From Yuukianura sp. NJ FZ-2021 (Eukaryota): a stretch of DNA of 64,000 nucleotides. Position 1 is the stretch's first letter. The number at the start of each line of letters is the position of its first letter. The notes under the pieces were generated by a model that was given only the letters and a program-made list of their open reading frames with translations, did no database searches and was not told where the DNA came from. Below are positions 19,052 to 63,605 of this stretch, one piece after another. Location of the stretch: NCBI GenBank assembly GCA_046563655.1, contig CM102286.1, forward strand, positions 1,736,001 to 1,800,000. Direction: 5' to 3'. A program made the translations under genes and the position numbers.

Positions 19052-21209
19052 ATGGCTAGGAAAGGAGATGTTGTGCGTTTCGTAAAAAACAATTGTCTCC
19101 TTTTTGCAATAATTGTTGGAGTGGCTCTAGGGGTAGCTGCAGGTACTACCTCAATTCTTAATTTTATAATGTAATTTAACAATTTATGTAAAATGTATAA
19201 TATTTTAATATGTTTATGTTATGTGTTAAGGCCTCTCACTAAGAAGTCAGAAGTTATCGGACCAATGGATCCTGATTATCGGTTATCCCGGAGAAATTTT
19301 TACAAGAGCGTTGGAACTCATGATTCTTCCGCTCATAATTTCAAGCTTAATTGTCGGTAATTGTAATTAACCAAATTTTAATTAAGAATTTCAGTAAACA
19401 GTTAAAATTTTATTTACTTTTAGGTTCAGCGAGTTTGAATGCCAGAGCCAATGGGAAAATTGCAATGAGGACATTAATGTACTTTCTCATAACTTCATTA
19501 TTCAACGCTCTTCTAGGCGTTTTGTTAGTGTTATGGCTCATTCCAGAAACTCCAGATATCAAAACTGGAGCCAAAACTGCCATTGTTTTAGAAGAGAGAA
19601 AAAACACACTTTTGGACAATTTTTTGGATTTAGGAAGGTGTGAAATTACAACTTTACGGTTAAATTTTTCTAAAGGTTTTCACGAAATTTCACAATTTAT
19701 TTTCGAAATAGAAACATTGTTCCAAACAACATCTTCACCGCGCTATTTCGACAGGTAGAATTTTTTTTCCAGAAAAATAAAGTTAATTTCTAGCAAAAAT
19801 TAATGCATTTACGAAATAATTGGCAGTCTTTTCTAAATTTCAGACACAAACAAGTTATGAGAAAAACATAAATGATGATGGCACTGTCACCTACACACGC
19901 TACATTAACCAACAGTAAGTTATTCAAACTTCTTTTAGCATATTCCAAAAACAATAAAACCCAAAATTTCGAACTTTTTTTTTAATTTTTGAAAATAGGT
20001 ATGGAACAAATACACTGGGAGTTATTGGTTTTGCTCTAATATTTGGAATGGTGCTGGGTTCAATGGGAAGAGCAGCTCAGAGTCTAATTGAAAGCATTTC
20101 AATTGTGGACAAAGTCATTATGAGCATGGTTCAAGGAGTCATGTGGTACGTTTTAACTAAAATATATTATATTATTAATAATAACACATTTAAAGTATAT
20201 TTAATATTTAAAATGTTTCAGGTTAACTCCACTTGGAGTAGCAAGTTTAATTGCCAGTAAAATCCTAAGTGTAAACGATGTTGCAGAAATTACGCGTTTG
20301 CTTGGATTTTTCGTTCTGACAGTAGTTGCTGGAGTTCTGATTTACCAGTTGATCATTTTGCAGTTGATCTATTTGTTCATTACAAGAAAAAATCCAATCA
20401 AATTCTATGCCCAGATGATTCCAGCCACAATCACTGCTTTTGCAACTGCCTCAACGTAAACAAAACCTACACAGCATTTGGCTCAGAAATCAAAACACCG
20501 TTGTCCTCTTCCTATTATTATTAATTATTATTATTATATTTATATAAATTTATGTGTATTTATGTTTTAGAGCCGTGGCATTGCCTGTTAGTTTTCGATG
20601 TATGGCCAACGCAGGCGTAGACATCAGAATTGCACAATTTGTGTTGCCAATTGGCGCCACCGTGAACAAAGACGGAACTGCTCTTTTTGTCAGCATTGCG
20701 TCCGTATTCATTGCTCAACTCAATGGATCCTCACTCGGAGTTGGTGATTTGGCAACAGTCATGTATGTTTTTTCAAATTTTTTTTTTCGAAATTTCAAAG
20801 AAAAATCATTTTTGAAAAATTTTTCTGTCGTTCTTCAGAATCGCTTCAACAGCAGTTAGTATTGCCAGTGCGTCGGTTCCAAGCGCAGCCCTAGCTCTGA
20901 TGTTTATTGTCCTAAATTCAATTGGCGTTCCAACTAAAGACGTCGGTTTGCTATTTGCTGTGGATTGGTTTGTGTAAGTAATTTGAAAAAAAAAATCAAA
21001 ATTTTGAATTTCACGAAATTCTTTTTTTGTTTTTGAAAATCAGAGATCGTGTGCGAACAACGAATAATCATCTTGGAGATTGCTACGCAGCAGCAGTCGT
21101 AGAACATTTTTCCAAAGAAGAACTACGGTTGATGACCCCTGACTCAAATGGAAACATAAGAAATGACAACGGAAATCAAATTTTTCATTATCCTATGCAT
21201 CCAATATAA
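19052..21209 (+). CDS. Eaat2: SLC1 excitatory amino-acid transporter, insect Eaat2 (aspartate/taurine) type
   Basis: [96 protein letters not shown] (close to Drosophila Eaat2 DRIRTTNNMLGDCY as recalled); about 10 exons. Confidence 0.9.
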
Positions 21210-22169: not shown

Positions 22170-23735
22170 ATGGAACCGCAATACCATTCACCAACTTCGG
22201 CCGTTGTGACTTTCAACAATCAAAATTCAATTTTGATGGCCATGTATCTCCGGCTGCCCCAAATTCTTTGTCTTTTGCACGACAACCGGATTTTTGCCTT
22301 TCAAAAAATTGGTGGCGACCAGTCGTCAACGGAAGAGCAAAATTTGATGTTGGCACTTCTCACTACCGCCAAATTTCGAATTATGGGTTTCCTGTACAGT
22401 GGTTATCACCTTGTTGATAACACTATGTTTCTACTCATCATCATTCTGAGTATCCTGAACAACGGATTCACTATGCCAGAACATCATGAAATTGCGCTCT
22501 TTGCTGCCATTGGTCTAGAGGGCTTCTATGACGTCATGCTCTTCACGCACCGCTATTGGATACTCCAGAGACTCTCGATTTTCATTGGTCTAGTGCTGTA
22601 CGTCCTTTACTTTGTTATTGTCGGTATGACATCAATAACTTCTGCTGGAGGTCATTTAGATAGACCAGCACATATTTCTATCATTGTCGTCTGGGCAGTG
22701 TTGGGCACGAGATTTGCTGCGTTTATTTTGGAGGAACTTGTGGACGTTGCAATTGATCTGCAATTGCACAACGATTTGGTTAAATTGAACAGAGAAAAAG
22801 ACCAAAGGAAGCTAGAAGCTGCTGCTGCGTCGGCGCACAATGTTCCAGGACCATCTCGGAAGGCAATTGTGCACAAAGGAACCCCTACTTCTTCTGTGTC
22901 GGCGCACAACTCTCAAGGAACTTCACAGTTCACAATTGTGAACGCAGGAACTGCTACTAATTCTGAGTCGGTGCACAACTCTGCAGGAACGTCACAGCAC
23001 AAAGGTACCACCAAAGAGACTGATTCTCCGTCGGCACACAACTCTCAAGAAAAGTCGAAACACAAAAGTCCAAAGAACAGAGATGGCGCTGCGGCTGAGT
23101 CAAAACAAAAAAGTGGAAATGAGAGTAAATTGAATACGGGTTCAGCACAGACCAGCAGTGCGCATGACGAAACTAGTCTTACGATTGGACAAGACAATCC
23201 TGCATATGACGAAACTTCAGACACTACTGCAGAAGATCAAAGTGCAAACCGCGCTACTTCTTCGCCCGCTACAACAGAATCACAAGAAACGGGTCAAGAA
23301 AGTATCGAATTCACGCAGGTCAATTTGAGTGACCTCGCAGTAGAAAGTGGCGTCGGGGTCAATGACCTTGAGGGGCTTGTTACCGGAGTCACAAAGCCAG
23401 CAGGGTTGCATAATCGGATGAAACGGTATTTGAACGTGAGCAATGCCGTGACAATGCCAGATCACATGACCTACGTGGGCTCTTTGTTTGCTTGGGGTCA
23501 AAGGTCAGTGTTTGACGAAGGAGTTTGGCGCAAGACAAAAGTGCCACAAATATGGTCTATTCTCCTTTGTTTCTTTCCGGCAATTCCAGCATCCCTTGTT
23601 TTGATTCCGATTTTGGCCCTATGTGCAGCCGCAGCGTTGGTAATTCTGGTCATGCTGCTTGTCATGTCAATTTTCTGTTGCACTTGTACTGAATTTTTCA
23701 AAAGAAACTACTGGGTTGAGCTACGTCGTCTATAA
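22170..23735 (+). CDS. Intronless orphan multi-pass membrane protein (~521 aa) with a repetitive Ser/Thr-rich loop
   Basis: 1.56-kb uninterrupted ORF in AT-rich DNA (first ATG 22170); 4-5 hydrophobic segments N-terminal, internal SAHNS repeats, long C-terminal hydrophobic stretch followed by CCTC. Confidence 0.85.
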   Translation: MEPQYHSPTSAVVTFNNQNSILMAMYLRLPQILCLLHDNRIFAFQKIGGDQSSTEEQNLMLALLTTAKFRIMGFLYSGYHLVDNTMFLLIIILSILNNGFTMPEHHEIALFAAIGLEGFYDVMLFTHRYWILQRLSIFIGLVLYVLYFVIVGMTSITSAGGHLDRPAHISIIVVWAVLGTRFAAFILEELVDVAIDLQLHNDLVKLNREKDQRKLEAAAASAHNVPGPSRKAIVHKGTPTSSVSAHNSQGTSQFTIVNAGTATNSESVHNSAGTSQHKGTTKETDSPSAHNSQEKSKHKSPKNRDGAAAESKQKSGNESKLNTGSAQTSSAHDETSLTIGQDNPAYDETSDTTAEDQSANRATSSPATTESQETGQESIEFTQVNLSDLAVESGVGVNDLEGLVTGVTKPAGLHNRMKRYLNVSNAVTMPDHMTYVGSLFAWGQRSVFDEGVWRKTKVPQIWSILLCFFPAIPASLVLIPILALCAAAALVILVMLLVMSIFCCTCTEFFKRNYWVELRRL

Positions 23736-62068: not shown

Positions 62069-62599
62069 CTATGGTCGCGGCGGCGGTCTGTTCCAGGAGT
62101 AGTCGCCTTTTTGAAGCACATGTGCTGCCGTTCCTTGGTTGCCATAAGTAAAGTGTGACGTTGCAGGAGGTGACTGTCCGCCAAACCCTAGGTATCCACC
62201 ACCAACAGGCTGACCGTTAACCGTGACTGTTTTCTGGGCTGGTCCAATGACGTTCCCGTAGTCATCAATTTCTTCAATGACAGTTTCCTGGACAGTCGTT
62301 GTAGTCGTAGTTACGTAGGAATCGTACTCTTGATCAATGCCTCCCCCGTGGCGACATCGTTTTCTCGCACAGTAGATCAAGATATAAAGTAAAGTCATAC
62401 CAACGAAAACACCAACGATAATGCAAACCAGAGTTGTGGTGTCCATGCGGTATCCACTTCCAGTACCGTAAGAACTTCCACTGTTGGTATGGTAGTACCG
62501 AGTACCGTGACTCCCGCCGTATCCGGAACCGACACTGCTATGGGAGGTCGTGGTTTTGGTAACTTTTGTGCTTGTTGTTACCCGGTACTTTTTGGCCAT
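62069..62599 (-). CDS. Intronless single-pass membrane protein, Gly/Ser/Thr/Tyr-rich (176 aa)
   Basis: One TM (LVCIIVGVFVGMTLLYILIY) followed by CARKRCRH; paralogous to the next gene. Confidence 0.8.
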   Translation of the reverse strand: MAKKYRVTTSTKVTKTTTSHSSVGSGYGGSHGTRYYHTNSGSSYGTGSGYRMDTTTLVCIIVGVFVGMTLLYILIYCARKRCRHGGGIDQEYDSYVTTTTTTVQETVIEEIDDYGNVIGPAQKTVTVNGQPVGGGYLGFGGQSPPATSHFTYGNQGTAAHVLQKGDYSWNRPPPRP

Positions 62600-62994
62600 T
62601 TTTCTGGACCAGGTTTCGGCAACAGCTGATGAGAGCGGTTCTGGGGCAAGTTGAGATTTGCTGTCCTCAAAAGTGGCTCTGCTGTCTCGTAATACTAATG
62701 GAAACGATACCGTAAATCCCCGAGTAGCTTATTTAGTTACCCCTGGAGTACTGATGGCAACGTTGACCTCTGGGAGGGGTTAGGATGTGGACTTGGCTTG
62801 AGGGCGTTATATTTGAAGATTTACGGTAACTTTACAACGATCTGCGTTTGTTTAGAAATTTTGATTGAAAAACTGCAGCGTATCCATGACCAAATTTTTA
62901 TCAAAAACGAAATTTATTCTGTCGGAATAAATTCCAAGTTCACAAAAATTTTTCTAAACCAATCAGAATTAAGGTAAGCATAGAAGTCTAGCTT

Positions 62995-63549
62995 CTATTT
63001 TCCGGAAGTATTCCTTTGGGTAACTCCAGTTGCGGTACTGCCCAATACTCCTGCTTGGTACTGGGTACTGCCCAATGCTGTTGTAGGATACTGCTGTCTC
63101 TTCGGAGGATCTAGGCCGTATGCCCTTGCAGGATTACCGTAGTTCCCTTGTAGAGGAAAGTGCTGTCCTCCATAAGCGTAGCTTCCAAACGTAGCGTAAC
63201 CAGTTCCAACACTCGGAGGTTCATCGGCCACCGTGACTTGTGGCTGGACAAGAACGTCTTTCTGAATTTGTTCAACTACAGGTTCATCTACAGTTGTAGT
63301 AGTCGTGGCTGTGATGTCGCCACCATAGACTCTATGTCTCCTCCGCGCTCTTTTGCATGACCAGATGACAGCAATAAGTATCATGACGACAACGAAGACT
63401 ATGGCAAAGCCCAGGATGGTCCAAGTGGCGCTGTCGGATGAGTTGGAAGTGTAGCTGGCTCTACCGGAACCACCTCCACTGAACGTACGCGTTTTATTCG
63501 TAGTATGCGTTTTATTCTTGGCTATACCTTTGGTACGTCTGTCCTCCAT
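62995..63549 (-). CDS. Intronless single-pass membrane protein, paralogue of 62069-62599 (~184 aa)
   Basis: ATG 63549 (MEDRRTKG); TM WTILGFAIVFVVVMILIAVIW then CKRARRRH; shares GG..TTTTT.V.E.V.E.I and P.VG.GY..FG..GGQ..YGN with its neighbour. Confidence 0.8.
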   Translation of the reverse strand: MEDRRTKGIAKNKTHTTNKTRTFSGGGSGRASYTSNSSDSATWTILGFAIVFVVVMILIAVIWSCKRARRRHRVYGGDITATTTTTVDEPVVEQIQKDVLVQPQVTVADEPPSVGTGYATFGSYAYGGQHFPLQGNYGNPARAYGLDPPKRQQYPTTALGSTQYQAGVLGSTATGVTQRNTSGK

Positions 63550-63605
63550 GTTGAAATATTTTCTAAACGAAAAGCCCACTTTTTCTGGCAATACTCACAA
63601 TTTGT

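What the first reader, a model, noticed from the sequence alone, without database searches (positions are those of the whole stretch)
20665..20679. SLC1 transporter with NKDG in place of the near-invariant NMDG cation-coupling motif
Seen: AAC AAA GAC GGA ACT = N-K-D-G-T. AAA differs from ATG at two bases, so a single miscall is unlikely, and the gene is otherwise intact. Known: the TM7 NMDG Met (M311 in GltPh) contributes to the Na2 site and to coupling; in LeuT-fold carriers a Lys or Arg replaces Na2 (ApcT K158, CaiT R262). The TM8 substrate Arg and Na1 Asp ([12 protein letters not shown]) are retained; the proton-carrying Glu is absent (TALFV), as in Eaat2. Inference: a built-in cation could give reduced Na+ stoichiometry, an exchanger or a channel-like mode. 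The usual IHPG after TM3 also reads LIPE.
Basis: partly seen in the sequence, partly recalled or inferred. Interest (0 to 1): 0.72.

Follow-up and report, generated by a model that had tools for sequence, protein, structure and literature searches.

The report
Built-in cation in springtail glutamate-family transporter
A springtail amino-acid transporter of the glutamate-transporter family carries a lysine where its insect and crustacean counterparts have the sodium-contacting methionine, a swap kept across distant springtails and made separately in some bacteria, so the protein likely supplies its own positive charge in place of one of the three sodium ions it would otherwise move.

Summary
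The gene is an intact, spliced 10-exon, 472-aa SLC1 gene and the only Eaat2-type copy among 7 SLC1 loci found in the genome. Lys342 aligns with GltPh Met311. NKDG also occurs in Folsomia candida, Orchesella cincta, O. dallaii and several unnamed relatives, which form one clade; 120 of 120 other arthropod Eaat2-type proteins have Met. All 24 coding variants listed among the best-supported rows are synonymous, and Lys persists across saturated synonymous divergence. An independent NKDG paralogue exists in Ignavibacteria (a single origin is rejected, p=9e-5); there it goes with TM8 Asp394Asn and a remodelled HP2. The Na1, Na3 and substrate ligands are intact in the springtail protein. Best reading, inferred only (0.45): the lysine ammonium fills the Na2 site, giving 2-Na+ symport, possibly with a proton, like ApcT K158 in another fold. 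Exchanger and altered-substrate readings remain open. No functional or ion-level structural test was possible. The LIPE motif is real but specific to this species. No report of NKDG or of a Met-to-Lys mutant turned up in the literature searches.

The parts
19052..21209 (+). Eaat2-type SLC1 gene, 10 exons (19052-19142, 19231-19356, 19424-19637, 19712-19754, 19844-19914, 19999-20145, 20222-20455, 20571-20762, 20839-20973, 21044-21209), 472 aa; the start codon is the first in-frame ATG and a further 5' exon is not excluded
20665..20679 (+). TM7 NKDGT motif; N341 and D343 are the Na1/Na3 ligands N310 and D312
20668..20670 (+). Lys342 codon (GltPh Met311 position)
20571..20762 (+). Exon 8 (end of HP1, TM7); joined to exons 7 and 9 in contigs of run X3
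   Evidence: tables 7 and 8
20855..20905 (+). HP2 stretch with the Na2 carbonyl donors S380, I381, S383 (GltPh 349, 350, 352) and the springtail-fixed changes V379 (A348), A392 (I361), F395 (A364)
21045..21080 (+). TM8 [13 protein letters not shown]419, R422, T423, N426 (substrate ligands D394, R397, T398, N401) and D430 (Na1 ligand D405), all retained
19492..19497 (+). TM3 T96-S97 (Na3 ligands T92, S93), retained
19314..19316 (+). TM2 E59 at the GltPh K55 position (K in 120 of 120 Met-type relatives, Q in 3 of 3 other springtails)
19537..19548 (+). LIPE in place of the (I/V)HPG after TM3; specific to this species

Best explanation
This is an intact, spliced, conserved springtail-lineage Eaat2 transporter gene whose TM7 lysine likely places its ammonium group in the second sodium site (Na2), so the carrier would move its substrate with two sodium ions instead of three. 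Shown: the Lys at the Met311 position, its conservation, splicing, and retention of the Na1 (G337, N341, N426, D430), Na3 (T96, S97, N341, D343) and substrate ligands. Inferred: (1) Na1 and Na3 binding flips the NKD loop inward as in GltPh; (2) the Lys nitrogen, about 2.5 A from the atom that corresponds to the Met sulfur (standard bond geometry, own knowledge), lands where Na2 sits, 2.8-3.0 A from that sulfur, among four backbone carbonyls; (3) HP2 closes over aspartate or taurine (substrate inferred from Drosophila Eaat2) without a third Na+; (4) for the empty return the lysine probably sheds its proton, because this side chain swings towards lipid in the apo state, which would make the cycle 2 Na+ plus 1 H+ per substrate. 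Step 4 is the weakest.
For: Met at this position touches the Na2 ion at 3.0 A in GltTk, and the site otherwise has only backbone carbonyls (PMC8431971). A Lys or Arg replaces Na2 in ApcT and CaiT (PMC6925253). Only the Na2 side-chain ligand is changed; the other ion ligands match 119-120 of 120 Met-type relatives. The Lys is fixed in a clade with SH-aLRT 100 and under purifying selection. In both lineages where Lys was fixed, HP2a next to the Na2 carbonyls also changed: A348V in 5 of 5 springtail-clade proteins (Ala in 117 of 120 others), and TGAAT in 21 of 21 Ignavibacteria-type Lys segments against AA(I/V)GT in 18 of 19 Met segments, one not matched. The protein lacks the described H+-coupling signature (hydrophobic 92, L311, N405; PMC12668577). 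The O. dallaii model folds as an EAAT (pLDDT 83, target TM-score up to 0.90).
Against: GltTk M314C and M314S keep 3:1 stoichiometry, so the site can hold Na+ without Met, although those residues are small and neutral. In apo GltPh and GltTk this side chain faces hydrophobic residues and lipid, which is costly for a charged Lys and favours the exchanger rival. Intact ion sites do not prove coupling: AncInt is uncoupled with its sites preserved. The HP2 co-changes are two events, each inherited within one clade, so they are not independent counts. About 15 other positions are also fixed in the springtail clade, so co-change alone is weak.
Confidence: 0.45

Rival explanations
1. Obligate exchanger or loosely coupled carrier. 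The charged lysine cannot flip out towards lipid, so the high-affinity state is favoured and the empty carrier cannot return; it swaps aspartate and taurine, or moves them with little Na+ dependence, as CaiT or AncInt do.
For: The apo state needs Met311 flipped out under a collapsed HP2. The Glu used for H+/K+ handling in EAATs is absent. CaiT, an antiporter, has Arg at its Na2 site. AncInt is uncoupled because the flipped-in state is populated without Na+.
Against: All Na1 and Na3 ligands are kept despite deep divergence. The Glu is absent in all Met-type Eaat2 proteins too, so that point is not specific to the Lys form.
Confidence: 0.22
2. Substrate-pocket role. The lysine turns to the substrate site, pairing with Asp394 or an extra anionic group, and changes selectivity (taurine, dicarboxylates) or stands in for a counter-transported cation; Na2 is still used.
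For: Met311 contacts the substrate. In the Ignavibacteria-type paralogue Lys goes with Asp394Asn in 21 of 21 segments, against Asp in 19 of 19 Met segments; Asp to Asn at this place gives dicarboxylate selectivity in the Culex transporter (PMC3737229). A cation site overlaps the substrate amino position at Asp394/Thr398. Met mutants keep 3 Na+.
Against: The springtail proteins keep D394, R397, T398 and N401 exactly as Met-type Eaat2 does, and two other bacterial NKDG proteins keep Asp394 (L094, L043). A Lys this close to Na2 would be expected to repel Na+ (inference).
Confidence: 0.18
3. Non-transporting form: a substrate-gated anion channel or a sensor that binds but barely cycles.
For: Smaller substitutions of this Met severely lower uptake rate in EAAT2/3. 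EAAT-type proteins have an uncoupled Cl- conductance. The genome holds six other SLC1 genes that could do bulk uptake.
Against: There is no positive evidence, and the bacterial paralogues beside an ordinary Met-type gene are more simply nutrient importers (inference).
Confidence: 0.12
4. Sequencing error or decaying pseudogene.
For: The window protein's branch is longer than those of other springtails (0.72-0.75 against about 0.5) and it has private changes such as LIPE.
Against: Lys is present in named species and unnamed relatives; spliced contig; 24 of 24 listed coding variants are synonymous although 76% of sites are non-synonymous; pN 0.18-0.20 with saturated pS 0.81-0.83 against two relatives.
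Confidence: 0.01

Closest known systems
Drosophila Eaat2 (dEAAT2), taurine/aspartate transporter of the SLC1 family
   Same: Same clade (SH-aLRT 100); same HP1 TAST, HP2 SVPSAA, TM8 ligands and missing TM7 Glu. Substrate label from PMC3737229 and PMC9823236 passages.
   Different: Met to Lys in the TM7 motif, plus A348V, I361 V to A, A364 L to F and K55 to Q/E, fixed in the springtail clade.
GltPh, GltTk and human EAAT1-3 (3-Na+ coupled)
   Same: Fold, Na1 and Na3 ligands, substrate ligands.
   Different: They have Met at 311, stated to be conserved in all known Na+-coupled SLC1 members (PMC8431971).
H+-coupled SLC1 members (E. coli GltP, B. subtilis DctA)
   Same: They also lack Met at 311.
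   Different: They have Leu there, with a hydrophobic residue at 92 and Asn405; this protein has Lys, Thr92 and Asp405.
ApcT (K158) and CaiT (R262), LeuT fold
   Same: A basic side chain at the place of a Na2 ion: the working analogy.
   Different: Unrelated fold and mechanism (rocking bundle, not elevator; own knowledge); these are Na+-independent, whereas this protein keeps two Na+ sites.
CuqDCT, mosquito SLC1 dicarboxylate carrier
   Same: An arthropod SLC1 repurposed by changes in near-invariant residues; its Asp-to-Asn change is matched by the Ignavibacteria NKDG paralogue.
   Different: It changes TM8 (D444N, T448A); the springtail protein keeps both residues and changes TM7.

Membership tests
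SLC1 / DAACS (PF00375) | SDF profile match above the curated cut-off | tested here: met
   Window exon 58.1 bits, orthologues 322 and 318 bits, cut-off 27.9
SLC1 / DAACS (PF00375) | EAAT/GltPh fold with HP1, TM7 break, HP2 and TM8 | tested here: met
   Model of the O. dallaii orthologue, not of the window protein itself; Foldseek E about 1e-28 to EAAT1-3
Pancrustacean Eaat2 orthologue group | Groups with Drosophila Eaat2 apart from the other SLC1 paralogues | tested here: met
   SH-aLRT 100 in two quick trees without bootstrap
Pancrustacean Eaat2 orthologue group | Transports aspartate and taurine | not testable with these tools
   Ligand residues are retained; no assay
Canonical 3-Na+ SLC1 carriers | Na1 and Na3 ligands ([S/T]92-93, N310, D312, D405) | tested here: met
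Canonical 3-Na+ SLC1 carriers | [M/S]311 at Na2 | tested here: not met
   Lys342; criterion from PMC12668577
Canonical 3-Na+ SLC1 carriers | Measured 3:1 stoichiometry | not testable with these tools
   needs a transport assay
H+-coupled SLC1 (GltP/DctA type) | Hydrophobic 92, L311, N405 | tested here: not met
   T, K, D
Vertebrate-type K+/H+-coupled EAAT | TM7 Glu (EAAT3 E374; role recalled) | tested here: not met
   Val349; Glu in 0 of 120 Eaat2-type relatives
SLC1 dicarboxylate carriers (CuqDCT, DctA) | Asp394 replaced by Asn or Ser, Thr398 by Ala | tested here: not met
   D419 and T423 are retained

The most novel reading that the evidence does not exclude
An unrecognised coupling class of SLC1 transporters, evolved at least twice (springtails, Ignavibacteria) and perhaps more often, in which a tethered, protonatable lysine replaces the Na2 ion and turns a 3-Na+ symporter into a 2 Na+ plus H+ hybrid. 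It would be a natural halfway stage between Na+ and H+ coupling, the first in the elevator fold and present in an animal transporter.
Probability: 0.3. Interest if true: 0.82.

Novelty: new variant of a known kind. Interest (0 to 1): 0.63.

Why it matters
The role of the Na2 site and its unusual methionine ligand is an open point in glutamate-transporter mechanism: small substitutions break binding cooperativity yet leave the 3:1 ratio unchanged (PMC8431971). Natural, selected Lys variants, each with a close Met-type control (insect Eaat2; the neighbouring Ignavibacteria paralogue at 55-58% identity), make it directly testable whether Na2 is needed as an ion or only as a charge that latches HP2. 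The bacterial pair suits purification, reversal-potential measurement and cryo-EM. It also qualifies the printed rule that Na+-coupled SLC1 members always have Met here. A lower Na+ cost could suit soil animals in salt-poor habitats, but that is speculation.

Tried and rejected
(1) K55 loss as a convergent partner of Lys311: springtails have Q/E, but both Ignavibacteria paralogues have Asn and L094 keeps Lys, so it is not a general compensation; it may still matter in springtails. (2) LIPE as part of the trait: absent from the other springtails. (3) A single origin or transfer of the Lys form: rejected, p-AU 9.4e-5; the test adding L094 did not finish. (4) A Met-type second Eaat2 copy in the genome: none among 7 loci (counts are lower bounds). 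(5) search for related loci in metagenomes: 75 candidates, none confirmed. (7) Pattern hits: of 132 loci, 14 are clear SLC1 genes, 1 is a weak fragment (L018) and the rest are unrelated. (8) The predicted model gave the fold only, no side-chain geometry. (9) The careful tree did not finish, so quick trees are used. (10) Earlier scan findings: nothing by sequence or words; one unrelated note by place. (11) Rosental and Kanner 2010 is not held, so whether Lys was ever tested there is unknown.

Full report
Observation. Window 20665-20679 reads N-K-D-G-T. A search over GT-AG junctions gave a 10-exon, 472-aa open gene at 19052-21209 with Lys at 342, identical to Orchesella dallaii P0004 at 285 of 473 aligned positions. 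The exon and two orthologues hit Pfam PF00375 above cut-off. The alignments to human EAAT2 and to GltPh (3KBC) put the Lys on the NMD methionine, Met311; window numbering is GltPh plus 31 through HP1, TM7 and HP2. The host is inferred from best hits and trees to be a springtail or a close non-insect hexapod.

Not an error. Contigs of one public sample cover the codon without a listed difference; this sample may be the assembly's source. In run X3, contig 17 carries the exon unchanged and continues with the end of the preceding exon, and two more contigs run into the next exon, so both flanking introns are removed. The run's library type is not on record. A retrocopy is unlikely because only one such locus was found.

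Conserved and selected. NKDG is in O. dallaii, O. cincta and three unnamed proteins among 35 hits, in Folsomia candida XP_021951336.1, in two intron-containing metagenome loci, L009 and L010, and in P0169 and P0216. In a quick tree of 57 rows these form a 10-row clade (SH-aLRT 100) inside the Eaat2 clade (100). In a 23-row tree the window protein lies outside Folsomia plus Orchesella (94), so the change predates their split. A comparison set of 120 non-springtail Eaat2-type proteins has Met in 120 of 120; it was drawn mostly from the best 120 of 1332 hits, with two long fused proteins left out. Among 120 listed shorter hits, 104 have NMDG, 2 NKDG, 1 NMNG and 13 lack the region. A profile built only from Lys-type segments returned, in its best 150 of 3512 hits, 141 NMDG, 1 double NMDG, 5 NKDG, 1 NSDG and 2 without the motif, so NKDG is rare. 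Of 41 differences classified (the 40 best-supported of 156 rows, plus 1), 24 are coding and all are synonymous, while 1078 of 1416 sites are non-synonymous; one Ile/Val allele at codon 373 is visible in an X3 loose end. Against L009 and L010, pN is 0.20 and 0.18 with pS saturated at 0.81 and 0.83 over 210 and 160 codons.

Genome context. Three searches found seven SLC1 loci (lower bounds). The window gene is the only one in the Eaat2 clade, so the Lys form has replaced the Met form rather than being a spare copy, as far as these searches reach.

Anatomy. Na3 ligands (T96, S97, N341, D343), Na1 ligands (G337, N341, N426, D430), substrate ligands (T345, D419, R422, T423, N426) and the Na2 carbonyl donors (T339, S380, I381, S383) are in place. 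The TM7 Glu is absent as in all 120 relatives. Changes fixed in the springtail clade near the site are A348V, I361 (Val in relatives) to Ala, A364 (mostly Leu) to Phe, G280 (Ala) to Val, and K55 to Gln/Glu; about 15 further fixed changes lie elsewhere. LIPE is private to this species. An AlphaFold2 model of the O. dallaii orthologue (38 sequences, pLDDT 83.2) matches EAAT structures; it says nothing on ions or the Lys rotamer.

Convergence. A pattern scan of prokaryote genomes, which stopped at 38 of 64 parts, gave 120 loci, of which 12 are SLC1 genes with NKDG: 9 labelled Ignavibacteria, 1 Bacteroidetes-labelled close relative, 1 Caulobacteraceae and 1 Spirochaetaceae fragment. In 3 of the 4 Ignavibacteria genomes examined, the Lys gene lies next to or one gene from a Met-type paralogue of 55-58% identity. 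Over 40 distinct segments (from the best 30 loci plus earlier loci, so biased towards the Lys type), 21 of 21 Lys segments have TM8 Asn394 and HP2 TGAATAPVAG, and 19 of 19 Met segments have Asp394. These reflect one duplication, not independent events. Forcing springtail and Ignavibacteria Lys proteins into one clade is rejected (p-AU 9.4e-5).

Mechanism. From print: the Met side chain touches the Na2 ion at 3.0 A, the other ligands are four backbone carbonyls, Met is conserved in all known Na+-coupled members and is Leu in H+-coupled ones, M314C and M314S keep 3:1, and in the apo state the side chain faces lipid (PMC8431971: passages and sections 12 and 13). Met311 couples Na1, substrate and Na2, and Met or Leu fills about 85% of homologues (PMC4051121: passages). 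An ancestral carrier with intact sites is uncoupled (PMC12668577: passages and section 4). Lys158 and Arg262 replace Na2 in ApcT and CaiT (PMC6925253: passages). Asp394Asn gives dicarboxylate selectivity (PMC3737229: parts 1-2 of 4). Drosophila Eaat2 is a taurine/aspartate carrier (PMC9823236: passages). Inference: the Lys nitrogen lies about 2.5 A from its delta carbon (own knowledge of bond geometry), close to the S-Na distance, so it can occupy Na2 and would exclude Na+. With Na1 and Na3 intact this gives two Na+ per substrate. The empty return then needs the Lys to lose its proton (2 Na+ plus H+), or it is blocked (exchanger). I put concentrative 2-Na+ transport at 0.45, exchange or loose coupling at 0.22, a substrate-pocket role at 0.18, channel or sensor at 0.12, and artefact at 0.01. 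None of these steps was tested.

Novelty. Searches for M311K, NKDG plus transporter (15 of 24 listed), springtail plus excitatory amino acid transporter, and M367K, M397K, M399K, M314K, NKDGT or Met311Lys returned no relevant paper by title and abstract. The library lacks most subscription papers, figures are not searchable, the Kanner mutagenesis paper was not held, and I did not open supplements; alignments or logos there could show Lys. It is an SLC1 member and an Eaat2 orthologue, fails the sequence test for both the 3-Na+ and the H+-coupled classes, and is rated a new variant of a known kind, interest 0.63.

Noticed in passing
L003 (G000:C7:3274364-3274546): Paralogue with NMNG (Asp312 to Asn, a Na3 ligand) and TALYLP; it belongs to a five-gene SLC1 expansion, L003-L007.
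   Followed up: partly
L005 (G000:C4:11422925-11423110 and downstream): Paralogue with TM8 DRVGT (Arg397 to Gly) and NMDGAAIG, likely a neutral-substrate carrier.
   Followed up: no
L074, L140, L146 (G001:C13:82413-88155); L142, L147 (G002): Ignavibacteria NKDG/Asn394 paralogue beside an NMDG/Asp394 paralogue, with a HAD-domain gene (resembles a P-type ATPase, recalled) between or beside them; a likely dicarboxylate carrier and a good structural target.
   Followed up: partly
L094:232-1602 (+) and L043:3-374 (+): Caulobacteraceae and Spirochaetaceae SLC1 proteins with NKDG and Asp394 kept; possible further independent origins, on long branches.
   Followed up: partly
P0029; P0270; P0106: A partial pangolin ASCT-like protein with NKDG and other degenerate motifs (probably decayed); an unplaceable 100-aa NKDG fragment; an Eaat2-type cluster of 6 members whose representative has NMNG.
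   Followed up: no
window 22173-23732 (+): Intronless 520-aa ORF just downstream, with hydrophobic segments at both ends and a Ser/Thr-rich middle; no Pfam hit.
   Followed up: partly
window 62069-62728 and 62995-63594 (-): Two neighbouring ORFs, each with one hydrophobic segment followed by Thr-, Gly- and Tyr-rich tails; they look like tandem paralogues.
   Followed up: no
window 20761-20762 with 20839: Ile/Val allele at codon 373, seen at a splice joint in run X3.
   Followed up: no
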